Source of the DNA: an uncultured Clostridia bacterium | Lineage (GTDB): Bacteria > Bacillota > Clostridia > Christensenellales > UBA1242 | Assembly (NCBI GenBank): GCA_944383685.1 | Contig: CALWQM010000005.1 | Coordinates: 15,171-79,170, forward strand | DNA: 64,000 bases | Direction: 5' to 3' | Shown here: piece after piece, positions 2 through 40,877 of the stretch | Layout of the letters: every line of letters begins with the position of its first letter | Position numbering within the stretch: position 1 is the stretch's first letter | Program-made: the position numbers and the translations under genes | Notes under the pieces: generated by a model | The model's input: the letters and a program-made list of their open reading frames with translations, nothing else | What the model was told of the DNA's origin: nothing | Databases searched by the model: none

Positions 2-3000
2 AATGGTACTTCAACATATATTTCTCCAAGCACACAAATTTCTGGTGCTTTCGGTAATAATATTAAATTGAAGGCAATTTGGGAAATTGTTCCTTACACA
101 ATCACATATGTTTTAAATGGTGGAACAACTGCGGAAGAAACAACAGTTTCCTATGATTTCAATACTTCTCTCAATATTTTATCTAGCACACAAGTGACAA
201 AAACTGGTTATACATTGAATAGTTGGACAGTTACTCCAACTTCTCCTGATACTTCAATTGGTAACTGGGCTGCAACAGTAACACAAGGTGCGCCATTAAC
301 AAAAATGTATGGTAATGTTACTTTGACAGCAAACTGGGAAACAAATCCTTACACAATCACATATAACACAGATGGCGGTGTGGATGCAGATGGAACAAGC
401 CAAGGCTTTGATATTGAAGATACTTTCACATTGCACACAAACATCACAAAATCTGGTTATGAACTTTTAGGTTTCACAATTTCTAATGACCAAGGTAACT
501 GGGAAGAAAAATTCCCACTTAGTGGCAACCTTAATATCAACATTGAGAATGATCAACACATTGATTTAACTGGAATGTATGGTAATGTTACTTTGAAAGC
601 TGTTTGGGAAGCAATTGCTGTTTCTTATGATATTGTTATTCAAGTTAGAACAGCAAGTGGTGAAGATCAAATTTTAACAACTTTAACTGGTGTAACAACT
701 GGGGAAGTAACTGGTGCAACTTTAAATATCGACACTGTGAAAGCTTATGCAGAAGCTCAAAGTGGCGTTAATGTTGCTGGTTTTAGTTATGACACTTACA
801 CAACAAACAAAGAGGGAAATTCTCTTGTGCTTGTTGGAGACGGTTCTCTTGACATTAATCTTTTCTATAATCCTGTAACATACACAATTAACTATGTTGC
901 AAGCGAAGGCGCATTTGGTAGCGGGGTTACAACAAGCGTTTCTTATAACGTTTATGGACTTTTAAATCCTGCTGGCGGTGAAATTTCAATCTTAACTGAA
1001 AATGATGCAACAAGAAATGGTTACAGACTTCAAGGATTCACTATCAGTGGAGCTGGGGCAACAAATGGAAGTTGGAATAAATTCCTTAAAAATGGAATTA
1101 TTGAACAAGGCTCATCATTCAGTTTAGATTTAGATAACAGAACTTATGGAAATGTTACTCTTACAACATCATGGCAATTACTTGCATATTCTATGACATT
1201 TAATGCCAATGGTGGAGAAGATGTAGCAAGTGTTTATTATAACATTGAAGGCACAACAAGTGGTTCTTACAGAAAGGTTGGAAACAGCTATGTTGAACAA
1301 ACAACAGTTGCTGTAATTTCTGGAACAACACGCACAGGTTACACACTTGATGGCTGGACAGTTGCTGCAAACAGTGGAAATTGGTCAACAAGTGATGCTG
1401 TTTATAAAGCAAATAGTTCAGTTGCTGGAAAATACGGCGATGTTACCTTAAATGCAAAATGGCTTAACAATGTTTATAAACTTAATGTAAATCTTAACGA
1501 TGCTGATGAATCTAACGGTTCAACAAAAGTTACAGACGACACAATGCTTGGTTATGAAACAAATGGTGTTTATGTTAAGTATGGAACAAAAGAGTTCTAT
1601 GCTGGAAGAACAGGTACAACAACTGCAACAAGCCCTATTTCAAACTTTGCTCCAACACGTGGTGGCTACACCTTCAAAGGTTGGGCATTGTCAACTGACA
1701 CAGGCACACTTATCACAGACAACAAAGGTGTTCTAATTAATAATTGGAATTTGTCTAGTGATGATGATGCAACTTTGGTTGCTCAATGGCAAGCAAACAC
1801 TTATACTGTTGTGTTTAACGGAAACGGCTCAACAAGTGGCAGTGTTGCAAATCAACCTTTCACTTTTGACGTGGCACAAAAATTAAATAAAAATAACTAT
1901 GTTCGTAATGGTTATATCTTCAAAGGTTGGGCATTAAGCAGAGAAGCAACTGTTGAAAATTATGAAGATGAACAAGAAGTAAGCAACTTAACAGAAGAAG
2001 CAAACGGCACAGTTAACCTTTATGCTGTTTGGGAAGCAAGAACAGTTGTTGTTACATTCAACCTTAATGATGCAAGTGCTGGTAATGGTTCAACAACTGC
2101 AACTCTTACATCTGGCGCAACAACAATGAATGTTAAATATTCTCTTACTTTTGCAAGTCTTTATGTTACCGACCCTAACTCTCCAACAGGACTTCCTGAG
2201 GCTCAAAGACATGGTTACACCTTTGATGGTTGGTATATTGGAGACACAAAGATTGAAAACAGTCATTTGGTTGCAACTTATGATGACGGCTTAACTTTAA
2301 GTTTAACTTTAACTGCTCACTGGACTGCAAAGAAATATAATGTTGTTTACCATGGAAATGATGGAACAGTTGGCGAAAATGAATATGTAAATGGTGTTCA
2401 AGCAACTTTCGACCAAAATTATTTGATTTTACCTAACAGCAACGAAGCACTTGGCTTTATAAGAACTGGTTACACATTTGCTGGTTGGGGCTTTGCAAGA
2501 GGTGGCGACATTGAATATGCAACTGGTGAACTTGGCTCAGATGGACTTTCAGTTCGATTCAATTTTAGTGCAAGCCAACTTTCAAATGACACATTAACTT
2601 TATATGCTCATTGGAGTGAAAACACTTACACAATTAAGTTTGACGGCAATGACGGAGAATACTTTGGAACAGCAACTTTAATTCCTGGAAAGAGTGACAC
2701 TTTAAGCGGTATTAGATTTACACAAGAAGTTACTTTTGAACAAATCTTCAATAGAGCAGGCTTCACATTCCTTGGTTGGGCGGAAGAGCCAACAGGAGAA
2801 GTTAAGTATAAAGTTGGTGCAACTGCTTCTGGAATTTTAACAGAACCAGGAACAAAAACTTTCTATGCAATTTGGAAGGCTAATCCTGTTAAATACACAA
2901 TTAACTATTACTATCAAAAAGTTTCAAGTGCAAGCCTTGGACAAAGTGATAACTATGCAAGCGATTATGCTCTCTTTGGCCAAGCAGAAACCTATCAAGG

Positions 3001-21000: not shown

Positions 21001-24000
21001 AAGCGGAATTTACTACTTGACAACAACAGGAACATACTATGTTTACAACTTAGCAACTGGCGAAACTGATGACACATCAAAGACAATTTATGTGGCATGG
21101 CTTGCTCATACTTACACAATCACTTATATGGCAAACGGCGGAACTTTTGACGAAATCTTAACAGCTGAAAGCACTTATGAAAAGACCTTCACAATTGAGG
21201 ATACAGTGACATTTGTTTCTGGTGATGAGCTTACTCTTGAAGGTTACACGCTTGTTGGTTATTCACTTTCAAACATCAATGGTAACTGGACTGATAAGTT
21301 TAGTGGTGATATCACTTTAAGTGCAACACCAAGTGTTACAGGTGTTTACGGAAATGTTACTTTAACCGCAATTTGGAGAATTAATTCTTACAATCTCACA
21401 ATCACATATAAGTATGGCGCAAACGGAAATGATAAAGATGAAACAGAAGCTTATGACGAGTTCACAAGCCAAGTTGAATTTAATGCTTCATATAATCAAC
21501 CATCTCCAAGCATTAATGGATATACTGCTGACCAACTTACTGTTTCTGGAACAATGCCTGCTCATGATGTTGAGGTTGAAGTTCTTTACACAGCTAATGT
21601 TTACACATTAACCTTTAACTATATGGACACAACTGGAACAGGTGATGTTGACAAGTTTGAATACGATAAAGTTAAAGTTAAATATGATGCTAAATACGAA
21701 ACAGCTTACGTTGAAGGACAAGAAGGCAAACCAGTTGGACTTGGTGCTCCAACAAGAGAAGGATACACCTTTGCTGGTTGGTATACTGACAGCAAGTATA
21801 GCGCTGGAACATTGATTACAGATGATGATGTTGTTTCAATTTTGAGAGATACAGAAATCTTTGCAAGATGGACTCCAAATGCTGACACAGCATACACAGT
21901 TGAATATTACTTTGAAAGCCTTGACAGTGCTGAAAACTTTGAAATTGATGCATCTTACACAAAGACTGGCACAGGAACAACAGACACTGCAATCACTGAA
22001 ACAATGGTTAAAACCTTAACAAGCGGACAATGGCCAACAAAGACAGGCTTCACATACAGCCGTAACAGTTTGAACAACACCACAATTAATGCTGATGGTT
22101 CAACTGTTGTTAAAGTTTACTATTCAAGAGATTATAACACTTTAACTCTCAATTCAACTGATGGAATAGACTCCTTTGTTGCATCTGCAAATAAAGTGGC
22201 AGAAGGACAACAAGATACTTTCTACATCACAGGCTCTGGCAACACTTACCGTGTAAGATATGGCAGTGAAATTAAACTTACTTACACAATAAGCGACAAA
22301 GGGTATAGATTTGTTAATTACACTGCAACAGGAATTGATGCTGAACAAGACATTGATGACAACGGTGTGTTCACAATGGTTGACAGCAACATCCAAATCA
22401 CTGCAAACGCAGAAGCAAAAGAATTTACAATTATCTTCCATAAGAATGATGGTGCTAAGCCAGAAGAAACCACAACTCAAACTGCAACTTATAGGGAAAC
22501 AGTTAAATTAAATAACAACACCTTTGAACGTGCTGGTTATGGTTTTGCAGGTTGGGCAAGAAGTCCAGAATCAACCGAAGTTGCTTATGCAAATGGTGCT
22601 GATTTCACACTTAGCTCAAATTATGCAACCGAATATAACTTATATGCAATCTGGACAGCGGATGCAATAAGCTTTACTATTGATGCTGGCACAGGAATTA
22701 TCAAGGAAAATATTGTTCTTAAAGTTAACGGTGAAGTTAAAGATGTTAACACTGCAACTTTGAGATATGAAGACAATGTTGAAATTGATGTTTCAGGTGC
22801 AATTAAGAATGGTTATGATTTTGAATCAATTGTCAATGGTGCAACAACAATTAGAGAAATGACATACTCATTTGTTTTGACAGAAACAACTGTTCTTAAA
22901 GTTAATGCAACCCCAAGAAATGACTCACAATTTAAAGTTGTGTTTGCTCAAAGAAATATTGAAGATACCGCTTATGTTGAAACAGAATCTCAAATTGTAA
23001 GTGGTGCAACAACTGATAAGGTTGTTACAAGAGTTTACTTAGATGAATTTATTTCAAATATTGACACTAAGTTTGCTGGTTTCTTCTACACAAGCTTCTC
23101 TAACAGCTTGACAGAAGGTGAACAAGTATTCACAATTATCTATAACAAAGAAATCACTGAGGAAGATGAAGAAGGTTCTTACACAACTGTTTATATCTTA
23201 TATAACAGATATCACTATGGTATGAGCTTAAATGCAACAACTGGATATTCAACATTCACTGCTGACGGCACAGTTGACGGCACAGTTAACTACTATGATG
23301 CAGATGGCGAATACCGTGTTGACTTTGGTGCAGAAGTAAGAATTTATCTTGATTTGAACCCTGGTTATAGCCTTGAAGGATTCAGCATTAAAGCTATTGA
23401 GGCAACCGGTTCTAAGGATGGCACAGAAGAAACAGTTCTTGGCGAAGAACATGACCTTACATTTAATGAAGATGAAAATGCTTACTATTTGGATGACACA
23501 AAACTCTTCACATTCATTTACAATGATGCTGGTTACTATGTTCTTTCAGTTATGCCATATTATGACCTTGAAATCACTGCAAACATCACAGCAAATGAAT
23601 ATGAAGTAAGATATTATAGATACTGGAACACTGCTGATGTAACTTATGACCCAGATACTGTTACATTCAACACTCCATATTCAATCAAGAACATTAATAA
23701 ATTCCCAGACTTTAATAAATCAGGTTGGGATTTCGCTGGTTGGGCAACAAGCAAAGTTGATGCTGACCAAAAGACTGTAACTTACAGAGCAGAAGACTTT
23801 GTTGACGAAAATGACCTTTCAATTGGTAATTACACATTTGATCATGACCTTGAACTTTATGCAGTTTGGACACAAGGAAATTCTTCATATAAGATTGAAT
23901 ACTATCTCGAAGAATTAAATGGTGATTACAATATTGACAGCGAAAGAACAAAGAACTTATCTGGTTTAACAGACAGCACAGTTACAACAACTGATTATGA

Positions 24001-27000
24001 AGTTTCAATCACTGGTTATGTTATCAACAGAGAATTGTCAACAACAAGCGGAACTGTTACTGCTGACGGACAATTAACACTTAAACTTTATTACGAAAGA
24101 ATTAATTATAAGTTAACAATCAACGGAAACAACAGATTTACTTCACTTGGTCTTGTTGCAAGTAAAAATGTAACAAACGAAAACTTTGATGAAGAAACTT
24201 GTGTTTACACCGCTGATGTAACTTATGGTGCAACTGTAACTCTTACTTATGAAACTGTTCCAGGCTACACATTTGCAAGCTGGAATGTAACTTCTGGCTC
24301 GGCTGACATTGAAGGCAACACATTAACAATGCCAGCAGACAATGTTGTTGTTTCAGTTGTTGAAAAACCTGAAACTTACACATTGACATTTGAAGCTAAC
24401 GGCGGACATGTTGAAGGTGAAGAAGAAACAACTTCTTATGAACAACAATTTGAATACATGTCAAGTGCAAACTTAACAGCAAACAAGTTTGTTAAAGATG
24501 GTTACACATTTAAGAACTGGACAATCAATGGAAAAACATATCAAGATAATGAACTCTTTACTTACAACTTTACTGAAAATGTAACAGCAACTGCTGAGTG
24601 GACACCAAACACAAACACTGCTTACAAGATTATTGTTCACATTCAAAACTTAAACGGTGAAGGTTACACATCTTCAACTGCTGCTGACATGACTGGAACA
24701 ACAGGTGCCACAATCACACAAGACAATGCTAAGACTGCATTAATTAACAAGTTAACAGAACTTGGCATAACAATAACTCGTGGTGAAGAAGGTTTCAACT
24801 TTGTTAGATTTGAAGAAGATGATTTAACAATCAACGGCAATGGAACAACAGTTGTTAATGCATACTTTGACAGAAAGATTTTGACAAATGAATTTAGAAT
24901 TGACAGTGAAGGTGTTGAAAAGATTGTTGTTAACTACTTCTCTATTGAAGACAAGCAAGAACATACATTTGAATACACAACAGGTGCTGAAAATAAGACT
25001 ATTAAAGTTGCATTTGGACAAGAGTTCACAATTCAACCTATCTTTGAGGCTGGTTATGAATTTGATTTGATTGCTCGTTACTTTGGCGAAGATGTTGACT
25101 TTACTTGGAACCATGAAGACCTTGGTGCTGGCCAAGATACCAACACTTTAACAACTTCAAGTGGAATTAATGATAATGCAATCTATGCAGTTACTGCAAA
25201 GAGATTGTCATACACAATCACTTATCATGAAAACTTCTTGGAAACAGGAACTGGCACAGATACTCAAACAGTAACTTATCTTGATGCATTCAGTTTAAGA
25301 ACTCCATTCAGCCATGCTGGATATAACTTCTTGGGCTGGGCAGAAGAGGAAGATGGTGCAAAAGTTTATGAGCCAACACAAAGCTTTAATAACTATACTT
25401 GGACAGATAACATTGATCTTTATGGTGTTTGGGAAGCTATCACTTACACAATCAAATATAATCCATATCAAGCAAGTGAAGGCGAAATGATGGAAGACAC
25501 AGCTGTAACTTATGATGTTATCACTGCTCTTTCAAACAATGTATTCACATATCTTGGACACAACTTTGTTGGCTGGTCATTATCTGCTGGTGGTGAAAAT
25601 GTTGTTCAAACAGTTGCCACAAAAGCAGAAATTGTAAACCCAGGCTACTATTATTGCGAAGAAGATTCAACTTACTATGTTTATAATGTTACTGTTACTG
25701 ATAAAGATGTTATCACACTTTCTCCTGTATGGGAGGCTAACACTTATAAAGTTATCCTTCACAGCAACACAGAAGCTGATTTAACAAGTGACATTGGCGA
25801 CTTTGAATATGGTGTTGAAGGAAAGATTCCTGCATTCAACACACTCAGCTGGACAAATGAAGGATATGACTTCAATGGCTGGTATTACATGAATGGCGAT
25901 GATAAGGTTCTTCTTGGTGAAGGAGTTGGTGCTGACAAAGAAGTGACATTCATGAACTTAACCCTTAATGATAATGCAACTGTTGACCTCTATGTAAATT
26001 GGGTTAAAGGTTTAACAACATATAAAGCAATTATTTTGAAACAGATGCTTAATGAGGAGTACGATTCAACAGATCCTGAAAATTATATCTTGTTCAGTTC
26101 TTCATTAAATGCAATCACTGGTGACTTTGTTACTGCTAAATATGTTTACGACACTTACATTGTTGAAAGTGAATATGCTGAAATTACAGGCTTCACTTAT
26201 GACGCTGAAAGAAATGCAGAAGAATCATTCGAAATCAAAGGTGATGGTTCGACAACTGTTTACATTTACTACACAAGAAACACTTATACTCTTAACATAA
26301 CTCTTGGAACAGGTATTGAAAGTGCAGAAGCAATTATTGCAGACACAAATTACAGCTTTGCAGGACAAGATGGAAATGTTATGAAATATAATATTTACTA
26401 TCAAGGTCAAGTTTCAATGACTGCAACTGCAAAACAAGGCTATCAAGATGTTCCTCCAACCTTCGTTTCAAACACAAGTGATGTTGAAATTGAAGAAGGA
26501 AACTTAATTACAATGCCTGCAAAGGATGTGTTTGTAACAGTTTCTGCTGAACCTGATAAAGACACAGTTTATGGAATTGAGGTTTACCTTGCTGACGCAA
26601 CTGGTGGCTATGAAGATACAACAACTTTGAAGACCACTGGCACAGGAACAACTGATGAAGCAATCGACCTTTCAACAGCACAAGGAATTGCAAACAGCAC
26701 ATTTACAGACGAACTTGTTGGATACACATATACTAGATATGAATTTGCAAACAGCGTTTCAACAATCGCTGGTGATGGCTCATCAATTATCAAACTTTAC
26801 TATCAAAGAGTGCCATACAGAGTTACATTCTCATCAAGCTTAACCAATGGCGCACAAATTCCTGAACAACAATCTGTTATTCATGGAACAGAAGTTGAAG
26901 TTGTCTTTGTTATAAATCAAGGATACAACTTGCCAACCGAAAACAGATTTAAAGTTACAAGTGGTGAAAGTGATTACTCTCTTGAACTTCAAGTTGAAGA

Positions 27001-29152
27001 AAGCGAAACACCAGAAGGACTTAAACAATACACAGTGACATTCACAATGCCAACAAGCAACATCAACATCAATATCAATGTTGCTGCAAACACTGACACT
27101 AAGTATACTGTAATTTATAAGTTTGAAAGTGTTAAGAACTTAAACACTTATGATGAAGCTCTTAATGAGACTCATGACTTTACAGGAACAACAGGTGAAG
27201 TTATAACAAAAGATATGATTGGACTTGGCGAAGAATTTGTTGCTCCAACAGGATTTATTCTCAGCCACACAAGCATTGATGACCTTGCTCTCACAATTGG
27301 TGGAGATGGAAAGACTGTTGTTGAAGTGTTCTTCCTTAGACTTAGACAAAATCTTAAAGTTGAACTTCATGATGATAATCAAGGTATTGACGGAGATGTT
27401 GTTGTTAAGGTTGAAGGTGTTGAAGTTCCAACAATGCAAACAAGAGAGTGGACCATTGCTTATGAACAAAAGGTTGAACTCACCTTTAACATGAAGAGTG
27501 GTTACACCTTTGATGGCTTTGTTGTGAGTGGAAATGTTAAGGATAAGACCGAAGATGTTTCTAACCGCAAACTCACCTTTACAACTGATGTTGAAGATGT
27601 CAATGTTTCAATCACTTTAACTGCAAGAAATTCTAAATACACAGTGAGATACTTCTTACAGAAAGTTGTTGATATTGACAATTACTATGATCAAGACCCT
27701 GCAAACTATGATGTTCTCAACTGGGCTGTTGAACAAACTGCTCCAACAAACACCCACTTGACAACTGAAAACATCACAACTCAATTTATCACAAATATTG
27801 AATCTCTCAGTGGATACAATAGTGTTAAGGATAAATTTATTGGTTACGATTTAACCGATGATGTGTTCACAACAGGTGGTGGTTGGATAAGTGCAACCGT
27901 TAACAGCACAGACGACATCACAGATTGGATTTATGTTGACGGCAACGGAACAACAGTAATCAATCTTTACATCAACAGGCTTATTGTTAATGTTGATATC
28001 AATGTTGACGATGACACACATATTGGAAATGTTGATGGTGAAAAAGATTATGTTTATGGTGATGTTGTTACCATGACAGCAAACACAAACCCAGGTTATA
28101 TCTTTGATTACTTAATGTTTAACGACACAAGACTTGACAAAGATTCACCTAACTTGAAGGTTGTTGACAATGATGACAACACTCAAACAATAACTTACAC
28201 ATTCACAATCACAGAAGACACAATTGCTGAAAATGGTGGAATTGATATTCAAGTTTACAGCACATTTGGAACTGCAAAATACACCATTGAACTTTATAAG
28301 CAAGTTCTTGATAACTCATTAAATATTGTGTTTGGTGAACCTGAAAAGATTGAACTTACAGGAACAACTGAAAGTGCAATCAACTATGAAGAATATACAA
28401 CCGCACCAGCAGGATACACTTATGAGGTTGAAAGAACTGATGCTGATGAAATAATCAAAGGTGACGGAACAAGCATTGTTAAACTTTACTTCATGCTTAA
28501 TGCGATAACATTCCATTTGACCTATGGTGAAGGTGTAACAAATGTTCAAGTTTACAGCACATTTGGAAGTGTTGCTCAAAGTGAAGTTGTTGACAATGTT
28601 TACACATACACTGTTTCTTATACTGACACAATTTACTTTGAAGTTGAGCTTGAAGTTGGTTACGACTTTGATGGTATTGGCTTGTTAGTTGACGGCGAAT
28701 ATGAAATTCAAGATAACTCTGCAAATCCTGAATACAGAATGGTTATTCCTGCGGAAGAATTTAATATTCAAGCAAAAGCTTCAAGAAGATTAGTTTATGT
28801 TTACTATTTCACAGACACATCATCATCTTCTTATGCAGATTTCAGTATGTATAAATATGGTGCCACTGCAACACTTAAACCAAACACATTCACAAAAGAT
28901 GGTGCAACCTTCATGGGTTGGGCAACAACAACTGACAAGGCAAACCAAGGTGTTGTTGACTACGAAGATGGTGCAACCTTCACAATTACTGGCAATGTTA
29001 ACTTGTATGCTGTTTGGGCAGAAAGTGGCGGAAGCAACTGGTGGATTTGGATTATAATTGCCTTTGCAATCATACTTGTAATAGTAATAATAATTATTAT
29101 TATAGTTGTGGTTAAGAAGAAAAAAGAAAAGGATAAGATCCGCGCGAAATAA
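2..29152 (+). CDS. Giant repetitive surface protein/adhesin (InlB B-repeat/Flg_new-like plus MucBP-like modules) with C-terminal TM anchor; 5'-partial
   Basis: The frame has no stop from position 2 (aat ggt act ... aaa ttg aag) to TAA 29150-29152, so the TTG at 68 is not the true start. Dozens of GY(T/E)FxGW ... LYAxW repeats. Ends in WWIWIIIAFAIILVIVIIIIIIVVV-KKKKEKDKIRAK, with no LPxTG. Confidence 0.93.
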   Translation, partial: NGTSTYISPSTQISGAFGNNIKLKAIWEIVPYTITYVLNGGTTAEETTVSYDFNTSLNILSSTQVTKTGYTLNSWTVTPTSPDTSIGNWAATVTQGAPLTKMYGNVTLTANWETNPYTITYNTDGGVDADGTSQGFDIEDTFTLHTNITKSGYELLGFTISNDQGNWEEKFPLSGNLNINIENDQHIDLTGMYGNVTLKAVWEAIAVSYDIVIQVRTASGEDQILTTLTGVTTGEVTGATLNIDTVKAYAEAQSGVNVAGFSYDTYTTNKEGNSLVLVGDGSLDINLFYNPVTYTINYVASEGAFGSGVTTSVSYNVYGLLNPAGGEISILTENDATRNGYRLQGFTISGAGATNGSWNKFLKNGIIEQGSSFSLDLDNRTYGNVTLTTSWQLLAYSMTFNANGGEDVASVYYNIEGTTSGSYRKVGNSYVEQTTVAVISGTTRTGYTLDGWTVAANSGNWSTSDAVYKANSSVAGKYGDVTLNAKWLNNVYKLNVNLNDADESNGSTKVTDDTMLGYETNGVYVKYGTKEFYAGRTGTTTATSPISNFAPTRGGYTFKGWALSTDTGTLITDNKGVLINNWNLSSDDDATLVAQWQANTYTVVFNGNGSTSGSVANQPFTFDVAQKLNKNNYVRNGYIFKGWALSREATVENYEDEQEVSNLTEEANGTVNLYAVWEARTVVVTFNLNDASAGNGSTTATLTSGATTMNVKYSLTFASLYVTDPNSPTGLPEAQRHGYTFDGWYIGDTKIENSHLVATYDDGLTLSLTLTAHWTAKKYNVVYHGNDGTVGENEYVNGVQATFDQNYLILPNSNEALGFIRTGYTFAGWGFARGGDIEYATGELGSDGLSVRFNFSASQLSNDTLTLYAHWSENTYTIKFDGNDGEYFGTATLIPGKSDTLSGIRFTQEVTFEQIFNRAGFTFLGWAEEPTGEVKYKVGATASGILTEPGTKTFYAIWKANPVKYTINYYYQKVSSASLGQSDNYASDYALFGQAETYQGDTGTNVNYTTYRDNFISTNGILKPAFKGYTTNGQDNSLAILGDGTLQVNLYFTRGTYDVSVTLGTGIQSVTVTNADRGPITGSQQGMKFTYAIFYQEVISITAQTKAGYGNPVFKEGDSNVTTSSLTIEGNRDFTVSATAGIATFKVEIYYETLTDDVYNSSADETKSNSGTTDSPLVVNATGKNISINGQQYTKAGFSYDNTKTVAENGNKELNTITVLGDNSLVVKLYFSRDSYTLTLNNGTGISSVSGGGSYKFEQDVSISAVVAVGYEWNTWEQTSGTALTGFAAGTKDQANLKMGAGNATLTATATILQFRLTIDLAGGTYTGSVTGTDEQNRPYVKQDYNTTYVLVNPTKTGYVFTGWSDPTAGSLAEDGYTYTFAATDATITATWRPITYQVKFDGNNATSGQMDNQSFTYNDPQPLTLNKFTRTGYTFKGWSTTSTGTVNFADGATPGNLTAKDNDVVTLYAVWEENTYTINFNGNDGEYFGKASLIDGESASVTLKYTQSYSLKSVYERTGYTFSHWTTEADGTGTRYNENQSINSLLETGSMTLYAQWTANRYAINLNENEGSLVGSDIENLTVYAEFNTQKLYTSKTGSVEAKPVAEREGYEFGGWSTTQNQASSRLIDASGVLTAIYHTASDQTVYALWTANTYEITLNLNVPESETTAQIVDNSDPANTITDGKVYITFDSTTIMNAETSGVAVKPIATRTGYTFLGWATSAGVTTAAGCVIDNQGNLKSASKFSSDTELFAIWTVLSYNLTINTDSAQISDLTVTGNDTENISGNTYRVAYESKVRITFNNIAGYSFVRFNKSVESVVINNVSGGYELTMPSQDLTLTMISSANLIKVNMNANDEVGATKADALTNNEVYIRYNTKEIYANRSAENLYMPVGEAIKPVASRDGYTFKGWATSKTATEADVLIDSEGQLKANFTSSTVDGAVTLYAVWTANTNTRFVVEYYFQNIAGNGYDKQDSLTLDDLTGQTDVNINIETYKSYYTTEINGFTFARYTTLNSANGTEVENGSLNIDGDGSRVVRIYFTRNTYTLTINKDNGESNLTVTQRHGSTYSLPTVTKTGYNFNSWTKTSGEGTVSENTFTFGIGNAVVKALWDAKIITVTLDKGEGDSVTTETVYVKYDSNIIYKDAGCETPIVTPPTASKLAYDFNGFYYDGSLVISSVGALTSPWTLSEGPTITLTAEFKPHTYTITYEGNYGNPSVSDTEYTYVSEIVFATATRDGYTFGGWKVKNEGDIGNWVVDQVYQGTIDAPSNLYGDITLVAEWTATPYTATFNTNGGSTVDPIPYDIKSTLTMPTVSKAGYKFTGWTVDETVGNWNKDATYQIGEQINNKFGNVSFTANWAESTDTEYQVHIYYQNLDKGYTTFETSQRYGTTGQTITIDYVTNPNAVTITDSNKSQTYSRDGFHVDTTQSNTQSATVGANGDTVINVYFARNEYTLTVNAGNGISSVTPNGAKSVIFGQEVAIDATVQDGYNFVNWTVTSGTTPTTKDEEEFIATAKSQTIVIGLGNVTLLANASTQSYTITYVNGEEQTPASYDVTDPINLMQVTKTGYTFGGWAVSNNEGNWTEEVITSTTIPAGKWGNVTLTAKWNVNTVEVTLKANDSVGSTRIDSLPNGGKVYITYDSKNIYSTRGGDAYPYTVNPDNLIENLKVTRNGYEFLGWALTPDATADDCIIGSDGLLKEVWTTNGQDGSVLYAIWKANTIKVTLNIDAETTLTDTEVYVVFDKNVIYADNTLSTTYAPVATKPGYTFDGFYQDETQVINASGKLVSNWTYSYTDTSLDAKFTATSYTITYEGANGTPSVNSQPYTTDSSVTLATATRTGYTFAGWIVKENVVVDGVTTWTKDEQISSPVDTSERYGDVTLVATWTANTYTIKYDANDDALIGTATGTTHDTPATYDQNVTLQMNGYTLTGYKFKEWNTQADGNGTSYTQGQALTKPNFCTGASGNTEFTLYAIWEIQSYELTLEKATGIASVSAKEVAGQVTKVEGSENKYTVVYGTAVTLNYTLESGYNFDKWTVTTGTATISDNVLTMPANNITVTAYARAIGYYINYNGNGGRINGDTSYSVAVDYAQTVNIYGAGEEANTISRTGYTFAGWNTQENGSGTPYTAGQSYTHEIVGDLTLFAQWTALKYDVIYNADNGLDDSYTQVDGATYDANYTFLANTDTNLQFKKTGYTFQGWSTTQGAPEVEYNAGDSIVYTTDEDLTLYAVWKANNYSIEYNANDTSGYYYGSAAGSTPYTSATYGQDVEIRACGYTLSGYTFKGWNTQADGNGTSYTPGQEGVRNLKTEEGEVLTLYAIWNANPYTITVKDTDTGSANENKIIDVHYADILTAENFIDNASTYTKTGYTLSGFFVEGTEVMFAAADGTLVENVKTTTDIIKNRQYVYANNLVVEAKYNANPYTVNFNVNDRPDDPNDHPTVETPSKTVHQDGTFDEGNLWPTPVNEGYIFYGWSTRNDYYMYLEEAFRTNYSKFADALNDTYLFTTTIESENEETQEKENVKVVFMKTNAPSVDEATSIDEILWKVTDIKGASGEDDHDFILGDEVVDGTTWTDNTLNLYAMWVGKNDIKYTILYLKEELVYNQDATEFTDIDQYPDEENMLAVGDSVNYQDPHATEENKDVPKLTYKVEKIDKPANAMTGDNVYNYIASQNYRGFKYYAYEYYQETITGEGNTVIYVFYTRIAYDLNLSTSKGIASVGATITGSETGAVTEVTPGKAYKVKYGATVTLSYVKSAGYTFSTWTQNKSDVEKVSVSGNSFVMNAVNPVNLTAYATPNVDTQFIVEHHFEQLDGTHKQNTGLKPNDVEKGTTDTSITVTGFVDNSITGFTYESRYETGKYVDGRWTKDEDSSLNIDGDGSKVVRLFYSRNDYAFTFNSNQANGYSDLSVTVGSVDQGDTLANITVPYEQQVTISVTVKNGYTFEGFISSNPELIANVDKGNEGIVKSGSTYSYTFTMPADNFTFTANISRNTNTAFTIKYMFEKLDIQDLTGHNKYEELGAHPSTTGHGTTEDVITLAHLGTLPTETGFTYVNFGYLEADGSFSPVYISGEGDSTVYVYFNRKTYTGTVNYLYGAGSIHENDQIKASTVIEGMRFGERQPVSVDPITGYTASDNSVTVAITEDKDFTYNVTFTPNTYDITWDFAGGQGSAGAGNYTIETAITLPTLTKAGYVFGGYTVGLVGDGEHSFVGNETFKDTIAAGNYGDIKLTAIWGEIENNVKFKLTNLTYTGEDAVLSGNEYTATLSANKGYSLPETIKVTIGGTEQTVTYDKESGKITIPGNLVVGDIVITADGVANRYKVTLNINDANFLNGSTNAVTTVENASINNGIIELWAVYNGDYNTLYTTKDGSVSIDLDAFTSETLTRTGYDFTGEWLTARYTADNKASDAVQVTGDTKFALDEDTTVLYAYWTTKIITLTLTENEGETATHDKVYVRYDGNGIYSDEDATNLCNPTATKTGYTFNGFYNADTLIITSTGTLNAAPWRNGDADMTLTADFDATPYTITFVADGGADVEAMPYTIESLERLPSTTKNGYDFLGWKPTQNVGPISDGYAWLASETYAAGTALTGKYGDVTLVAQWNPVEYTITYNAGQVDEQNVGSFTEDYLDKTTQKYTIESTETVYPASAVELQGYRFTGWKVTSESQGSWTKDAIITADYALLNKTGNVTLTAQWEAQPNTVTINVTNATADYEQTVLSGEEYTATITVNAGYTLPTAITVKVNGTEITLTEDYTYEQATGTITIKEGVINGNVEITGASVANKYDVTITGQNGHAQVSATNENDYDYTVKYNATTGVNFTVYAKADAGYSDVEFTVTAGSATIGEVTFKDGVYSAEVSGFTASFTITATTTANTNNVIYTLNNVQRDSGADKVASGEEYKGKISAVNGYSIPSAITIKNGTETLEANTHYTYSAETGEFTINAGVITSTVEIIATGVANNYQVTFNLNDFASTQNGSTSVESVVVGEQNIAISNGRISLWVKYGTDYNTLYIDEQGSASVTFDAFASASVITRKGYVFGGFYTEQLAVGASIEGKTEVNGDDTFTTPNNTTEVFAYWTAGTAEYKVEHYKMNLQGNYDSVTPTTETLSATTDTMVTPAVKSTALSTDEFYGFTAPETQTVKVEANGSTVIKYYYTRNVYTLSLTLGNGVKSVSATISNPVATGGDELGENQYHVYFGDSVTIDAVAEEGYTFKGVWTKTESGSPDITVGQDTTEGTFTLNVAQNVGYQAEATANEYEVTFDVNGGNALEEGQDKKTVTYNQKYGALPTPTRDGFAFGGWYVEDLDDNAPVEGKTLITSETIVSITGPQTLYAYWTVNNYDLTVIYKYADQEKPAAETLVVSMAYGAEITEATLQIQKIEGYSHDYVVGGGISLPTTMPVGGLTVTVTYTPNEHKIILVPNYPDSASASEPENVEIPTVYNQNIAITTIKTLGWTVAGYTFQGWKAADGQTYADGYTFAPWNIDADLTLEAQWQANTDTTFTVNIHMMGTDGEYDVVETPMTGTTDSKIVFTSNETTLTINGTSYTYPGMKFNSEKSTVITTEIYISGNGDTEFDVYFDRMQFTLTLNKGTGIGSVSMTPDPVEGKYYYGQEVTINAVVSEGYTWSTWNVADGIAPTTKDQTGFVGTTQNQTIIIGLGDVTLQAEATINSYKLFIDPNGGNYAGIDDVDETSGLQYVEMPYMSTYTLNRPSKDGFDFAGWALKEGSKGNVEYDAETGWVYTFGAGDGTVIAQWSANRYEVVINLNDFYNDNGTTTAETTLTTLPNGTELSIVDGKITLYATYGQKYDKLYISTSSDEYVSIADFTIDTLTRDGYTFVNFTDSQGNPVTADTTCDETSSVEIKANWQAKVYDLTVNVNKAGKVSVAVTGAAEEEGVYKVTFDTEITLTATPSEGYHFVNYTATSELSQNATYKFRYTNVGPMTITANVANNTYTITYNNNGGSGTIDPTDATYDENVTLSSGKGFVKAGYTLTGWAYEEETYEPSEEGIFNFTSVNGGSVELRAIWTANTYNVNFVTNGGTDMNPMNGVTYDVPTMITESTTKAGYNFLGYALTNGTSAEVTTVTDEDIQGASCADLTEYLVQLGEGGIYLYDENYYVFNLAETNGATVPVYAIWTPGKADYKVEYYLEGLTDNDWILDTVFEEEGITFTPNSTTINGNTESLVTIDETKTYTGFTLDKSVAGTKTSGEVAGDGSLTLRLYYRRNTYSVNIIIPDLSDAERGETGITGVNSVDTTGTYKVENRFKFNTEVTVSADIKAGYTFNNYTVTDGEVYTTGASYTFTIKNDTEITINLTRGTFNYTINYKFQNLEGTAYVDDENYESTTLSGLVDSKVLYSDIAGKIVEVPGFLYAGFTENVTVTSDGLAEVNINYDRDFFEITLQTTTGVASLTATGDYCTPNGTTEGTTTYRVKFDSSVTLNYVLNAGYAFKSWSETLVQVGTDADDNDLTGFGTLTMPADDLNIVVNTTPVIVDFTLNYLGEAFKDYDPESGNFDVFTVSLGTETKQGYTDTEIDDIRDYNPKDFDGFTRATFESGKKISGDGTTVINVYYTRNDINITVDLTEGVESITLNVNETDYTLTKEFTADESISIKYEAKVYVSYTLTDDAGYKFVSFNGVQVNADESENYFTVPKDAFTLSITTEPNEFTITFQGNNGTYTPSEPEQDNTYYTQTGVKFNREVTLIANEFTRAGYEFLGWATSQENADSRTVEYTDGESFMFDNAENMTLYAVWGNNTYTITYNGNGGYIEQEEGDPIVTYPHGEEVNYDEEITLLENRFDRTGFTFVGWSRSDKTLDTTGLTNSDGTWTAINLTTKANENVVLYAWWEENTYTLKYNSNYSQYSDNEDVEIEDKVYTYTEKFNALAHSDEKLNFALTGYTFAGWNRKPDGTGDSVNAGEELESLTAKDNDTVVLYAIWEANEYTIVFDGNGATSGNMDSVTATYDTPYAIAANGFNKTAYDFNGWSLSNDNVSVVKNVDSLDEITTSGIYYLTTTGTYYVYNLATGETDDTSKTIYVAWLAHTYTITYMANGGTFDEILTAESTYEKTFTIEDTVTFVSGDELTLEGYTLVGYSLSNINGNWTDKFSGDITLSATPSVTGVYGNVTLTAIWRINSYNLTITYKYGANGNDKDETEAYDEFTSQVEFNASYNQPSPSINGYTADQLTVSGTMPAHDVEVEVLYTANVYTLTFNYMDTTGTGDVDKFEYDKVKVKYDAKYETAYVEGQEGKPVGLGAPTREGYTFAGWYTDSKYSAGTLITDDDVVSILRDTEIFARWTPNADTAYTVEYYFESLDSAENFEIDASYTKTGTGTTDTAITETMVKTLTSGQWPTKTGFTYSRNSLNNTTINADGSTVVKVYYSRDYNTLTLNSTDGIDSFVASANKVAEGQQDTFYITGSGNTYRVRYGSEIKLTYTISDKGYRFVNYTATGIDAEQDIDDNGVFTMVDSNIQITANAEAKEFTIIFHKNDGAKPEETTTQTATYRETVKLNNNTFERAGYGFAGWARSPESTEVAYANGADFTLSSNYATEYNLYAIWTADAISFTIDAGTGIIKENIVLKVNGEVKDVNTATLRYEDNVEIDVSGAIKNGYDFESIVNGATTIREMTYSFVLTETTVLKVNATPRNDSQFKVVFAQRNIEDTAYVETESQIVSGATTDKVVTRVYLDEFISNIDTKFAGFFYTSFSNSLTEGEQVFTIIYNKEITEEDEEGSYTTVYILYNRYHYGMSLNATTGYSTFTADGTVDGTVNYYDADGEYRVDFGAEVRIYLDLNPGYSLEGFSIKAIEATGSKDGTEETVLGEEHDLTFNEDENAYYLDDTKLFTFIYNDAGYYVLSVMPYYDLEITANITANEYEVRYYRYWNTADVTYDPDTVTFNTPYSIKNINKFPDFNKSGWDFAGWATSKVDADQKTVTYRAEDFVDENDLSIGNYTFDHDLELYAVWTQGNSSYKIEYYLEELNGDYNIDSERTKNLSGLTDSTVTTTDYEVSITGYVINRELSTTSGTVTADGQLTLKLYYERINYKLTINGNNRFTSLGLVASKNVTNENFDEETCVYTADVTYGATVTLTYETVPGYTFASWNVTSGSADIEGNTLTMPADNVVVSVVEKPETYTLTFEANGGHVEGEEETTSYEQQFEYMSSANLTANKFVKDGYTFKNWTINGKTYQDNELFTYNFTENVTATAEWTPNTNTAYKIIVHIQNLNGEGYTSSTAADMTGTTGATITQDNAKTALINKLTELGITITRGEEGFNFVRFEEDDLTINGNGTTVVNAYFDRKILTNEFRIDSEGVEKIVVNYFSIEDKQEHTFEYTTGAENKTIKVAFGQEFTIQPIFEAGYEFDLIARYFGEDVDFTWNHEDLGAGQDTNTLTTSSGINDNAIYAVTAKRLSYTITYHENFLETGTGTDTQTVTYLDAFSLRTPFSHAGYNFLGWAEEEDGAKVYEPTQSFNNYTWTDNIDLYGVWEAITYTIKYNPYQASEGEMMEDTAVTYDVITALSNNVFTYLGHNFVGWSLSAGGENVVQTVATKAEIVNPGYYYCEEDSTYYVYNVTVTDKDVITLSPVWEANTYKVILHSNTEADLTSDIGDFEYGVEGKIPAFNTLSWTNEGYDFNGWYYMNGDDKVLLGEGVGADKEVTFMNLTLNDNATVDLYVNWVKGLTTYKAIILKQMLNEEYDSTDPENYILFSSSLNAITGDFVTAKYVYDTYIVESEYAEITGFTYDAERNAEESFEIKGDGSTTVYIYYTRNTYTLNITLGTGIESAEAIIADTNYSFAGQDGNVMKYNIYYQGQVSMTATAKQGYQDVPPTFVSNTSDVEIEEGNLITMPAKDVFVTVSAEPDKDTVYGIEVYLADATGGYEDTTTLKTTGTGTTDEAIDLSTAQGIANSTFTDELVGYTYTRYEFANSVSTIAGDGSSIIKLYYQRVPYRVTFSSSLTNGAQIPEQQSVIHGTEVEVVFVINQGYNLPTENRFKVTSGESDYSLELQVEESETPEGLKQYTVTFTMPTSNINININVAANTDTKYTVIYKFESVKNLNTYDEALNETHDFTGTTGEVITKDMIGLGEEFVAPTGFILSHTSIDDLALTIGGDGKTVVEVFFLRLRQNLKVELHDDNQGIDGDVVVKVEGVEVPTMQTREWTIAYEQKVELTFNMKSGYTFDGFVVSGNVKDKTEDVSNRKLTFTTDVEDVNVSITLTARNSKYTVRYFLQKVVDIDNYYDQDPANYDVLNWAVEQTAPTNTHLTTENITTQFITNIESLSGYNSVKDKFIGYDLTDDVFTTGGGWISATVNSTDDITDWIYVDGNGTTVINLYINRLIVNVDINVDDDTHIGNVDGEKDYVYGDVVTMTANTNPGYIFDYLMFNDTRLDKDSPNLKVVDNDDNTQTITYTFTITEDTIAENGGIDIQVYSTFGTAKYTIELYKQVLDNSLNIVFGEPEKIELTGTTESAINYEEYTTAPAGYTYEVERTDADEIIKGDGTSIVKLYFMLNAITFHLTYGEGVTNVQVYSTFGSVAQSEVVDNVYTYTVSYTDTIYFEVELEVGYDFDGIGLLVDGEYEIQDNSANPEYRMVIPAEEFNIQAKASRRLVYVYYFTDTSSSSYADFSMYKYGATATLKPNTFTKDGATFMGWATTTDKANQGVVDYEDGATFTITGNVNLYAVWAESGGSNWWIWIIIAFAIILVIVIIIIIIVVVKKKKEKDKIRAK

Positions 29153-29153
29153 T

Positions 29154-29190
29154 AACAAAAAGACTTAGCAAATGCTAAGTCTTTTTTGTT
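29154..29190 (+). terminator. Rho-independent terminator of the giant gene
   Basis: aaaaagacttagca-aa-tgctaagtcttttt hairpin plus T tract directly after the stop codon. Confidence 0.9.
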
Positions 29191-29287
29191 TGTTTAAGGG
29201 ATAAAATAGAAAAAAATTAATTTTAAAAATTTGAATTTTATTTGGTAATTTTTGTTATTTGTTATAAAATAATTAAAGGAGGATTTT

Positions 29288-30454
29288 ATGAAAATTAATG
29301 TTGTTCAATATGGTTGTGGCAAAATGAGCAAATACACAATGCGTTATGCCATGGAAAAAGGTTGCAAAATTGTTGCTGCTTTTGATTGTGATGAAAATAA
29401 GATTGGAAAAGATATTGGAGATATAATTGAAGACGGCAAGACTTATAAAGTTAAAGTGCAAGATTCCAAAAATTTTGAGAAGTATATCTCATCTCACACC
29501 GTGGACATTGTGATTGTGACAACCATGTCATATATCAAAGATATGTATGAACCACTTTTAATTTGTGCAAAGTGTGGAGTAAATGCAATAACAACTGCCG
29601 AAGAAGCATTTTTCCCACAAAACAGCAGTCCAAAAACATACAAGATGATTGATGATTTGGCTGTGGAAAACAACTGCACAATTTGTGGAAGTGGTTACCA
29701 AGATGTTTTTTGGGGAAATTTAATCAGTGTGCTTGCTGGGGCAACTCAAAAAATAACAAAAATTAAGGGTTCAAGTTCTTATAATGTTGAAGATTATGGC
29801 ATTGCACTTGCAAAGGCACATGGGGCAGGGCTTTCACTTGAAGATTTTGAAAAAGAAGTTGCTTCTGCTGATAATATTTCTAATGTTGAACGCAAAAAAC
29901 TTATTCAAAAGGGTGAGTTTGTTCCAAGTTATATGTGGAATGTTAATGGTTGGCTTTGCAGCAAACTTGGGCTTACTGTGGTTAATCAAACTCAAAAATG
30001 CATTCCGCATGTTGCAAAAGAGGACTTATACAGTTCAACTTTAAATATGACAATTCCAAAAGGTTATGCAACTGGCATGAGTGCAATTGTAACCACTGAA
30101 ACAAAAGAAGGGATTGTTATCGAAAGTGAATGCATTGGCAAGGTGTATGATAAAACTGAGTGCGATAAAAACGATTGGACAATCATGGGTGAACCAAACA
30201 CCAGAGTTGTGATTGAAAGACCAAGCACTGTGGAACTTACTTGCGCAACAGTTGTCAACAGGATTCCAGAAGTTATCATGGCACCAGCTGGATATTTCAC
30301 AACAGATTTAATGCCAGAAAATTTTTATAAGTTTGGCAAACTTGACGATTATCTTTTTGAAGTTGAAGAAGATGAATGTTGCTGTCACGATGACTGTCAT
30401 TGTCACGAACATGAAGAATGTGACTGCGGAGATAAAAAACATTCAAAAAAATAA
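29288..30454 (+). CDS. 2,4-diaminopentanoate dehydrogenase-like (Ord / DapB_N Rossmann) amine dehydrogenase with Cys/His-rich tail
   Basis: VVQYGCGKM Rossmann start, GVNAITTAEE, GSGYQD and TCATVVNRIP motifs; RBS aaggagg. Confidence 0.75.
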   Translation: MKINVVQYGCGKMSKYTMRYAMEKGCKIVAAFDCDENKIGKDIGDIIEDGKTYKVKVQDSKNFEKYISSHTVDIVIVTTMSYIKDMYEPLLICAKCGVNAITTAEEAFFPQNSSPKTYKMIDDLAVENNCTICGSGYQDVFWGNLISVLAGATQKITKIKGSSSYNVEDYGIALAKAHGAGLSLEDFEKEVASADNISNVERKKLIQKGEFVPSYMWNVNGWLCSKLGLTVVNQTQKCIPHVAKEDLYSSTLNMTIPKGYATGMSAIVTTETKEGIVIESECIGKVYDKTECDKNDWTIMGEPNTRVVIERPSTVELTCATVVNRIPEVIMAPAGYFTTDLMPENFYKFGKLDDYLFEVEEDECCCHDDCHCHEHEECDCGDKKHSKK

Positions 30455-40040: not shown

Positions 40041-40199
40041 CTTATCTCTCCAAAAGTATATTTATCTGCCAAATAAAATATAACAAAAATAAAAGTTGTT
40101 TAAATTATTATACTTTTAATGACAAAAAAAGTAAAGAAAAAGGTAAAATCATTTTCTTATTTTTAAATTACATGATATAATCTTTTTGAGGTATCAAAA

Positions 40200-40766: not shown

Positions 40767-40877
40767 TTTTATGGTGCTTGAACAATTCAAGTTTATTAAT
40801 CATATGCTGTTTTTATAATATTAAAATTTTAAATATTGGCTAGAAGTTTTCTAGTGTTTTGTTTATTGGAGGTAAAA

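What the first reader, a model, noticed from the sequence alone, without database searches (positions are those of the whole stretch)
2..29152. Giant (>9,700 aa, start not reached) TM-anchored Ig-repeat surface filament
Seen: a single ORF of more than 29 kb, already open at base 2, made almost entirely of ~70-90 aa beta-rich modules. It has no recognisable catalytic domain in this part and ends in a 25-residue Ile/Val/Trp TM helix plus a Lys tail rather than a sortase motif. Known: InlB B-repeat/Flg_new and MucBP-like domains act as stalks in adhesins. Inference: more than 100 tandem modules could project hundreds of nm beyond the wall. The functional tip (adhesin, lectin or enzyme) would lie in the upstream window. 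Such an investment suggests attachment to mucus, host cells or other microbes.
Basis: partly seen in the sequence, partly recalled or inferred. Interest (0 to 1): 0.75.

Follow-up and report, generated by a model that had tools for sequence, protein, structure and literature searches.

The report
Giant membrane-anchored repeat surface fibre gene
This is a real 36-kb gene from a tiny-genome chicken-gut Clostridia bacterium that encodes a 1.3-megadalton surface fibre of about 130 small repeat domains with a distinct tip, most likely for attachment; similar giants are already reported in gut Clostridia.

Summary
Window 2-29152 (+) is one open frame. The gene starts 7.2 kb upstream of the window, giving 12,124 aa, 1,324 kDa and 3.2% of a 1.13-Mb genome.

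Anatomy, from N to C terminus:
- a signal peptide;
- a lineage-specific ~230-aa head with a predicted beta-solenoid core;
- 115 detectable modules: 68 Flg_new, 26 Flg_new_2 and 21 MucBP-like beta-grasp modules that match no Pfam family. Sixteen gaps could hold more;
- one C-terminal TM helix and a Lys-rich tail.

The genome has penicillin-binding proteins but no sortase or exosortase.

Mis-assembly is very unlikely. The longest exact DNA repeat is 30 nt. Contigs from four other runs tile 20 kb collinearly. Syntenic orthologues of 11,508 and 12,714 aa exist in congeners.

The modules are beta-grasp, not Ig. They are old and show no sign of homogenisation in the class tested.

Best reading: a fibrillar adhesin-like fibre with its tip far from the cell. 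Binding is inferred, not shown.

Giant Listeria-Bacteroides-repeat proteins of gut Clostridia are already in print. This scan has also reported such genes before on other DNA, including one in Candidatus Caccovivens. Verdict: a new member of a known kind.

The parts
2..29152 (+). The 3' 29.15 kb (codons 2,409-12,124 plus the stop) of the giant gene. The gene starts outside the window at G000:C5:7948 (window -7222; L009:7948). The upstream 7.2 kb encodes the signal peptide (residues 1 to about 43), the head (about 44-277) and the first roughly 25 modules.
620..28516 (+). Span that holds the 21 'C' modules (69-121 aa, median 90). They are MucBP-like beta-grasp modules without a Pfam family. The first is at window 620-892 and the last at 28274-28516. 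They often occur as C-B pairs with a Flg_new_2 module. One search lists all 21.
21374..21601 (+). Short MucBP-type module (residues 9533-9608). It is the only module that passes a Pfam mucin-binding model (Muc_B2, 27.1 bits against a cut-off of 23.5).
28832..29014 (+). Last Flg_new module. It is separated from the TM helix by only about 8 residues.
29039..29113 (+). C-terminal transmembrane helix, residues 12088-12112 (25 aa). It is one of only two strongly hydrophobic segments in the protein.
   Evidence: The architecture is conserved in three orthologues.
29114..29152 (+). Lys-rich cytoplasmic tail (12 aa) and the stop codon.
29157..29186 (+). Terminator-like hairpin (13-bp stem, 4-nt loop) 5 nt after the stop. 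The T-run is weak.

Best explanation
The gene encodes a 12,124-residue (1.32 MDa, pI 4.25) fibrillar adhesin-like surface protein of an uncultured chicken-gut Clostridia bacterium with a reduced genome. By its RpoC relatives the bacterium belongs to the Candidatus Caccovivens / GTDB UBA11517 lineage.

Inferred mechanism:
- An N-terminal Sec signal peptide drives export.
- The chain stays in the membrane by its single C-terminal helix, with the Lys-rich tail inside the cell (type I topology).
- The chain of about 130 beta-grasp modules crosses the wall. It carries the small N-terminal beta-solenoid head far from the cell. At an assumed 3-4 nm per module that is roughly 0.4-0.5 um.
- The head, and possibly some stalk modules, would bind a ligand. 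This could be a glycan, mucus or another cell.

Shown here:
- gene integrity and the two hydrophobic ends;
- the module families and the predicted folds;
- conservation, synteny and a conserved promoter;
- no sortase or exosortase found in the genome.

Inferred, not shown:
- signal-peptide cleavage and topology;
- the extended length;
- binding and its target.
For: Gene structure
- Only two hydrophobic segments exist, residues 7-31 and 12083-12118.
- A TTGACA-18-TATAAT promoter (12 of 12) lies at L009 7773-7802. Both hexamers are invariant in all 4 orthologous loci aligned.
- A terminator-like hairpin lies just after the stop.

Modules
- Flg_new and Flg_new_2 pass Pfam's cut-offs.
- My own HMMs find 68 A, 26 B and 21 C modules. 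They cover 9,278 of 12,124 residues.
- The A profile matches the InlB B-repeat 2y5p at E 5.5e-7.

Head
- It matches no Pfam or NCBIfam family.
- It has 8 hits among 1.84 billion representative proteins; 2 of the 7 I aligned extend into Flg_new repeat regions and the rest are short N-terminal fragments.
- In the AF2 model, blocks 21-130 have pLDDT 87-96.

Anchoring context
- The genome has 0 sortase matches, 0 exosortase matches and 2 PBP transpeptidases.

Conservation
- The last 883 aa match 20 of 60 other species of the genus at E <= 1e-10. Open frames there reach 13,248 aa.
- G061 (12,714 aa) and G072 (11,508 aa) share the head, the anchor and the module order.
- G000 aligns with G061 in one HSP of 12,803 columns at 35.9% identity.
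- The flanking ZIP-transporter and DAP_DH_C-like genes are 76-85% identical.

Assembly
- The best internal DNA match is 338 bp at 69% identity. The longest exact repeat is 30 nt.
- Contigs from 4 runs in 3 studies cover all 30 bins of 20 kb, with collinear pieces up to about 7.6 kb.
- The 4 insertions seen inside the gene come to whole codons within each run: +3, +2 with +1, and +3.

Literature (passages read)
- Flg_new serves as a stalk domain in fibrillar adhesin-like proteins, and N-terminal beta-solenoid adhesive domains occur in them (PMC9210967).
- Flg_new proteins are enriched in host-associated microbes (PMC9723798).
Against: - No binding, localisation or protein-level evidence exists.
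- The head model rests on 9 sequences. Its second half is poorly predicted (pLDDT 31-58 from residue 220 on).
- Signal-peptide cleavage was judged by eye, because no predictor was available. The h-region is long (about 23 aa), so an uncleaved N-terminal anchor is not excluded.
- The RNA-library contigs may derive from contaminating DNA. They also cover the downstream gene.
- 40 of the 60 congeners searched gave no match at E <= 1e-10. Three of these have no giant ORF beside the DAP_DH_C-like gene. The fibre is therefore dispensable in the genus.
- Short-sided joints (sides of 20-38 nt) appear in the laid contigs. One, 17270->26264, is seen in all four runs. In X18 a long piece crosses each of the two places; in X3, X14 and X19 a listed piece crosses 26264 but none of the listed pieces crosses 17270, so I read it as a shared short motif at contig ends.
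Confidence: 0.7

Rival explanations
1. The fibre is not an adhesin. It is a spacer or coat: many copies would form a brush-like outer layer that keeps phages, immune factors or other cells at a distance. It would act as a substitute for a capsule or S-layer in a genome that spends about 10% of its DNA on giant ORFs.
For: - Seven ORFs of 2,781-12,137 aa add up to 118 kb, or 10.5% of the genome.
- Most of the protein is stalk, and the head is small.
- The protein is acidic and Thr-rich (pI 4.25, Thr 14.5%).
- The promoter is a perfect, conserved consensus, which fits abundant expression.
Against: - The head is a distinct domain conserved at about 40% identity in the orthologues. A pure spacer would not need it.
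- Flg_new proteins are discussed in the literature read as adhesin stalks, not coats.
- Nothing tested here separates this reading from adhesion.
Confidence: 0.15
2. The protein is a fibrillar enzyme. The beta-solenoid head would be a divergent polysaccharide lyase or hydrolase held out on the stalk to act on mucus, plant pectin or a neighbour's envelope.
For: - 'Fibrillar enzymes' with Flg_new stalks are described in PMC9210967 (Fig. 10 legend).
Against: - The confident solenoid is only about 120 residues. The matched enzymes have catalytic domains of 200-700 residues.
- The 9 head homologues scanned match no lyase or hydrolase family in Pfam; the window's own head also matches none in NCBIfam.
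- Non-enzymatic solenoids (pentapeptide-repeat proteins, SRRP, TibA, pertactin) score equally well.
Confidence: 0.08
3. The frame is an artefact: a repeat-driven mis-assembly, or a decaying pseudogene that merely remains open.
For: - The source is a metagenome-assembled genome in 17 contigs.
- Short-sided joints between distant parts of the gene occur in other runs' contigs.
Against: - The repeats are too diverged to mislead an assembler: the longest exact repeat is 30 nt and the best match is 69% over 338 bp.
- Contigs from 4 runs in 3 studies reproduce the order over 20 kb.
- Insertions inside the gene keep the frame.
- Independent assemblies of other species carry syntenic frames of 11,508 and 12,714 aa with the same ends.
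- The promoter is conserved.
Confidence: 0.02

Closest known systems
Giant (10,000-30,000 aa) predicted proteins of mammalian-gut Clostridia with Listeria-Bacteroides repeat domains (West-Roberts et al. 2023, bioRxiv 10.1101/2023.11.21.568195; passages read)
   Same: - The class is Clostridia and the habitat is the gut.
- The protein exceeds 10,000 aa.
- It is built largely of Listeria-Bacteroides (Flg_new) repeats.
- A surface-binding role is proposed.
   Different: - The preprint mentions these proteins in one paragraph. In the passages I read it gives no anatomy, and it calls the repeat a 'beta propeller-forming' domain.
- Here the source is a chicken-gut, 1.1-Mb-genome lineage.
- The full architecture (signal peptide, solenoid head, three module classes, TM anchor) and its orthologues are worked out.
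Fibrillar adhesins / FA-like proteins of Firmicutes with Flg_new stalk domains (Monzon & Bateman 2022, PMC9210967; passages read)
   Same: - A secreted protein with a long stalk of tandem domains.
- An N-terminal tip distal to a C-terminal anchor.
- N-terminal beta-solenoid tips resembling the L. reuteri SRRP binding region are described there.
   Different: - This protein is about ten times longer than typical members.
- It is anchored by a TM helix, not a sortase motif or a known anchor domain.
- The head matches no known adhesive-domain family.
Apilactobacillus kunkeei Giant1-5 (PMC12863079; abstract and outline read)
   Same: - A small genome (1.5 Mb) spends about 6% of its DNA on giant extracellular proteins.
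- They have N-terminal beta-solenoid domains and elongated bodies.
   Different: - Those proteins are 3,000-8,000 aa, lie in a five-gene cluster, and belong to Lactobacillaceae.
- I did not compare their stalk domains or anchors with this protein.
- This gene is monocistronic, 12,124 aa long, and made of Flg_new and MucBP-like modules.
InlB B-repeat of Listeria monocytogenes (PDB 2y5p)
   Same: The A-module profile matches it at E 5.5e-7 over the whole 78-position profile. The GY.F.GW and LYA motifs are shared in the printed alignment.
   Different: InlB has one B-repeat, next to an LRR internalin domain and GW anchoring modules (recalled). Here there are 68 or more copies and no LRR.
MUB / MucBP-type mucus-binding repeats (Lactobacillus reuteri MUB 3i57, Mub-RV 4mt5, YwfG 7yl4)
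   Same: - One short module passes the Pfam Muc_B2 cut-off.
   Different: - Of the 21 C modules, 20 match no MucBP-type Pfam family at E <= 1. One matches MucBP_2 at E 0.02.
Periscope proteins (variable-length stalk proteins; the concept was seen in passages of bioRxiv 10.1101/2024.12.31.630911; their defining near-identical DNA repeats are recalled)
   Same: Tandem stalk domains project a functional end away from the cell.
   Different: - The repeats here are old and diverged.
- 20 of 21 C modules are closer to a module of the G061 orthologue than to any paralogue in the same protein.
- Rapid length switching by repeat recombination is therefore not expected.

Membership tests
Pfam Flg_new (PF09479) / Flg_new_2 (PF18998) repeat-containing proteins | The whole-protein score exceeds Pfam's gathering cut-off. 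| tested here: met
   In the four pieces Flg_new scores 258, 187.7, 149.5 and 97.2 bits against a cut-off of 27. Flg_new_2 scores 58.9, 43.4, 99.7 and 52 bits against 23.6.
Fibrillar adhesin (as defined in Monzon & Bateman, PMC9210967) | A stalk of multiple tandemly repeated domains. | tested here: met
   115 modules were detected. They cover 76.5% of the protein.
Fibrillar adhesin (as defined in Monzon & Bateman, PMC9210967) | Attachment to the cell surface. | tested here: inconclusive
   A C-terminal TM helix plus basic tail is present and is conserved in 3 orthologues. [quoted passage not shown] Surface localisation was not observed.
Fibrillar adhesin (as defined in Monzon & Bateman, PMC9210967) | At least one adhesive domain. 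| not testable with these tools
   A distinct beta-solenoid head exists. It belongs to no known adhesive family. Binding needs an experiment.
Sortase-anchored LPXTG surface proteins | A C-terminal LPXTG-type motif and a sortase in the genome. | tested here: not met
   No LPXTG precedes the helix in the translation. PF04203 gives 0 matches in the 99%-complete genome, while the control rings in 3 Gram-positive genomes.
Exosortase/archaeosortase or other curated C-terminal sorting domains | A curated CTERM domain above its cut-off, and the cognate sorting enzyme. | tested here: not met
   The best hit is GG_III-CTERM at 16.4 bits against a cut-off of 22. PF09721 gives 0 matches in the genome.
MucBP / Muc_B2 mucin-binding domains | A Pfam score over the cut-off. 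| tested here: inconclusive
   [not shown]
   No Big or Ig family passes a cut-off. The A modules match the InlB B-repeat. The C model is beta-grasp-like. Some unassigned gap modules were not folded.
Periscope proteins | Highly similar tandem DNA repeats that allow length variation (feature recalled). | tested here: not met
   The longest exact repeat is 30 nt and the best internal match is 69% over 338 bp. The modules are positionally orthologous between species.
Serine-rich repeat proteins (SRRP) | Long Ser-rich repeat regions and export through an accessory Sec system (features recalled). | tested here: not met
   [not shown]
Giant gut-Clostridia Listeria-Bacteroides-repeat proteins (West-Roberts et al. 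2023) | A protein of 10,000 aa or more from gut Clostridia that carries Listeria-Bacteroides repeats. | tested here: met
   The protein is 12,124 aa. The RpoC relatives are gut Clostridia MAGs. The runs that hold the gene are mostly chicken-gut metagenomes. Flg_new is present. The source is avian, not mammalian.

The most novel reading that the evidence does not exclude
The fibre could be the main attachment organ of an obligately attached, genome-reduced Clostridia lineage. Genomes of the genus are 0.7-1.5 Mb, and here about 10% of the DNA lies in seven giant ORFs. On this reading the fibre is a fixed-length, position-specific rod, not a generic adhesin. Its roughly 130 modules have each kept their place since before the species split. 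This suggests that rod length or module-specific contacts are under selection. Examples would be bridging a defined distance to a partner cell or a host layer, or carrying several different binding sites along the shaft.
Probability: 0.15. Interest if true: 0.7.

Novelty: new member of a known kind. Interest (0 to 1): 0.35.

Why it matters
The gene is one of the largest intact bacterial genes with a complete anatomy, and it sits in a 1.1-Mb genome that can ill afford it. That points to surface attachment as central to how these uncultured, reduced gut Clostridia live.

The report gives three concrete handles for experiments:
- a small, lineage-specific tip domain that can be expressed and tested for ligands;
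- a sortase-independent C-terminal anchor;
- a set of positional orthologues showing that megadalton repeat proteins can evolve by slow divergence, without sign of repeat homogenisation in the module class tested.

The kind itself, a giant Flg_new fibre of gut Clostridia, is already in print. This scan has also met it several times, so the gain is in detail and not in kind.

Tried and rejected
Searches that found nothing useful
- The first related-loci scan of genome contigs, with the last 883 aa, confirmed no relative. The genome search found the relatives instead.
- phmmer of a 2,500-aa piece against PDB sequences gave 0 hits. Only a profile of the modules reached InlB.
- Profiles of the B modules and the C modules gave nothing significant against PDB sequences.
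- The protein atlas gave only scores below 0.8 for the head, so these are leads at most.
- A word-based search for giant relatives (5,343-17,003 aa) returned 7 unnamed proteins.
- Rfam found nothing in the window.
- My first paper search was too broad and useless.

Method problems
- My first module HMMs drifted, because types A and B are homologous. I fixed this by using round-3 models and competitive assignment. Module counts are therefore approximate.

Ideas considered and dropped
- Genetic code 4: aragorn finds only tRNA-Trp(CCA).
- A lipoprotein anchor at the N-terminus: the Cys at residue 17 has no canonical lipobox before it (read by eye).
- A poly-G promoter switch, as noted elsewhere in this genome by an earlier scan note: there is no G-run in the 530 nt upstream.

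Sequencing-run caveats
- The RNA-library contigs do not prove transcription.
- Three sludge-metagenome runs hold about 0.6 of the words, but I did not lay them. I draw no conclusion about habitat from them.
Full report
OBSERVATION

The window holds one open frame from base 2 to 29152 on the + strand: 9,716 codons, open at its 5' end. The translation has no internal stop. Base composition is about 36% G+C inside the frame and about 30% in the DNA after it.

The window is G000:C5:15171-79170. The assembly has 1,130,304 bp in 17 contigs and is 99% complete. I laid the genome and walked the frame upstream. A stop closes it at C5:7906-7908. The first ATG is at C5:7948, 7 nt after GAGGAG. The gene is therefore 36,375 nt and encodes 12,124 aa, which is 3.2% of the genome.

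Aragorn finds only tRNA-Trp(CCA), so the standard bacterial code applies.

ANATOMY

The N-terminus reads as a Sec signal: a basic n-region, a hydrophobic stretch of about 23 residues, and an Ala-Ser-Ala site near residue 43. I read this by eye; no predictor was available.

A Kyte-Doolittle scan finds only two strongly hydrophobic segments in the whole protein. One is this signal. The other is the C-terminal helix, residues 12088-12112, followed by a 12-residue Lys-rich tail.

Pfam finds only Flg_new and Flg_new_2 in the window part. It finds nothing in the first 301 residues.

I built HMMs from the protein's own repeats and assigned modules competitively. The result:
- 68 type A modules (Flg_new);
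- 26 type B modules (Flg_new_2);
- 21 type C modules (median 90 aa).

Together they cover 9,278 of 12,124 residues. Sixteen internal gaps of 59-142 aa are long enough for further, more degenerate modules. One such gap passes the Pfam Muc_B2 cut-off, at 27.1 bits against 23.5. Types A and B are homologous and my first models drifted, so the A/B split and the totals are approximate.

Other properties: 1,324 kDa, pI 4.25, Thr 14.5%, and 15 Cys in total.

FOLDS

A profile of 30 A modules matches the InlB B-repeat (PDB 2y5p) at E 5.5e-7 over its full length.

The C module matches no Pfam family with confidence: 1 of 21 shows MucBP_2, at E 0.02. It folds with pLDDT 86 when the 21 copies serve as its own alignment. 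Foldseek gives nothing at E <= 0.001; its top row is a Pediococcus adhesion-exoprotein domain at E 0.013. VIA-align ranks these first:

The head (residues about 44-277) has only 8 relatives among 1.84 billion representative proteins. Where long enough (2 of the 7 aligned) they run on into Flg_new repeats, and 6 of the 7 begin with a matching N-terminal signal. With a 9-sequence alignment AF2 gives mean pLDDT 69.6. Model residues 21-130 score 87-96, and the part after residue 160 is poor. Foldseek finds nothing at E <= 0.001.

IS THE GENE REAL?

At DNA level the repeats are old. The best internal match is 338 bp at 69% identity. The longest exact repeat is 30 nt.

The middle 10 kb of the gene is held by 20 public runs from 10 studies, mostly chicken-gut metagenomes. 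Two of these runs may be the source of this DNA. Two metatranscriptome runs hold 0.57-0.60 of the sampled words.

I laid the contigs of two RNA-library runs and two DNA runs (three studies) on window 10001-30000. All 30 bins are covered in all four runs. Pieces of up to about 7.6 kb are collinear, with 1-3% differences. The four insertions seen inside the gene sum to whole codons within each run.

Short-sided joints (20-38 nt) between distant places also appear. One of them, 17270->26264, is seen in all four runs. A long piece of X18 crosses each of the two places. In X3, X14 and X19 a listed piece crosses 26264, but none of the listed pieces crosses 17270. I read the joint as a shared short motif at contig ends.

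These are contigs, so they show neither transcription nor its level. The RNA-library contigs also cover the downstream gene.

RELATIVES

RpoC places the genome among uncultured gut Clostridia MAGs. Relatives titled Candidatus Caccovivens share 87-93% identity. That name stands for GTDB genus UBA11517, family UBA1242, order Christensenellales (PMC8035907, passage read).

The last 883 residues match 20 of 60 other species of the genus at E <= 1e-10. Identity is 27-41% and the alignments are mostly end to end. Open frames reach 13,248 aa.

The head matched 2 of 24 congeners in a first draw and none of 16 genomes from other families. It matched 3 of 5 chosen carriers at 40% identity.

I read two orthologues whole. 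G061 has 12,714 aa and G072 has 11,508 aa. Both have the same signal, head, anchor and nearly the same order of module types. G000 and G061 align in one HSP of 12,803 columns at 35.9% identity.

The flanking ZIP-transporter and DAP_DH_C-like genes are 76-85% identical in these species. The fibre thus evolves much faster than its neighbours.

Of the 21 C modules, 20 are closer to a module of G061 than to any paralogue in their own protein. By my reading of the table, 16 pair with the module of the same rank. In the C class, the one tested, I see no sign of homogenisation, and the order of all three module types is nearly the same in the orthologues. The array therefore predates these species.

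In three non-carrier species no giant ORF lies beside the DAP_DH_C-like gene. The gene is accessory within the genus.

EXPRESSION SIGNALS AND ANCHORING CONTEXT

A 12-of-12 consensus promoter lies 145 nt upstream of the start. Its two hexamers are invariant in the four orthologous loci, while the leader varies in length. A 13-bp hairpin follows the stop. The neighbouring genes are unrelated housekeeping genes.

The genome has two PBP transpeptidases. It has no sortase and no exosortase. No curated C-terminal sorting domain passes its cut-off.

Several other large ORFs in the genome end in the same way, with a helix followed by a basic tail.

INTERPRETATION

The protein fits the definition of a fibrillar adhesin-like protein: it is secreted, has a long stalk of tandem domains, and carries a distinct tip distal to the anchor.

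Passages of PMC9210967 describe Flg_new as a stalk domain. They also describe N-terminal beta-solenoid tips similar to the L. reuteri SRRP binding region. PMC9723798 notes that Flg_new proteins are enriched in host-associated microbes and have beta-grasp-like structure. A. kunkeei gives a parallel case: a small genome with 3,000-8,000-aa giants that have beta-solenoid N-termini (PMC12863079, abstract read).

Giant 10,000-30,000-aa Clostridia proteins with Listeria-Bacteroides repeats from gut metagenomes are mentioned in West-Roberts et al. 2023 (passage read).

Earlier notes of this scan describe the same kind on other DNA. One concerns an 11,081-aa gene in Candidatus Caccovivens.

I therefore file this as a new member of a known kind. 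Topology, length and binding remain inferences. The rival readings are a non-adhesive coat, a fibrillar enzyme and an artefact. Each is weighed in its own section.

Noticed in passing
G000:C2:51571-72330 and G000:C6:51754-70872 (outside the window; L018, L019): Two further giant ORFs of 6,920 and 6,373 aa. The first has no Pfam match in the 6,476 aa scanned. The second has only marginal Flg_new/Flg_new_2 hits and the same TM-plus-Lys tail. With four more ORFs of 2,781-4,136 aa and the present gene, seven ORFs take up 118 kb, or 10.5% of the genome.
   Followed up: partly
G000 contigs C2, C11, C12, C15 (e.g. C15:332085-335015, C12:78403-81579): A family of at least 8 paralogous ORFs of 977-1,544 aa shares a conserved C-terminal block ending in a Cys-containing motif. 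Several carry strong Flg_new repeats. An earlier scan note reports a poly-G promoter cassette in front of such genes. The giant gene has none.
   Followed up: partly
window 51272-54375: Ku plus a split LigD (phosphoesterase-ligase, then primase-polymerase). This is a complete non-homologous end-joining set in a 1.13-Mb genome.
   Followed up: no
window 56674-63585: Rep (REP_ORF2-G2P), an unassigned 290-aa ORF, an Nmad3 nucleotide-modification protein, an HTH regulator and a tyrosine integrase. This is probably a small integrated mobile element.
   Followed up: no
window 39231-44110: Three paralogues of the TMEM164 family (PF14808) lie within 5 kb, next to a DegV gene.
   Followed up: no
L009 430-4185 (G000:C5, upstream of the window): A 1,251-aa protein with a STAND-type P-loop NTPase region. 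nSTAND3 scores just over its cut-off. It may be a defence or signalling gene.
   Followed up: no
L104 (G011:C9:18001-19074): In one congener the DAP_DH_C-like gene has 2 in-frame TAA stops, so it may be a pseudogene there.
   Followed up: no
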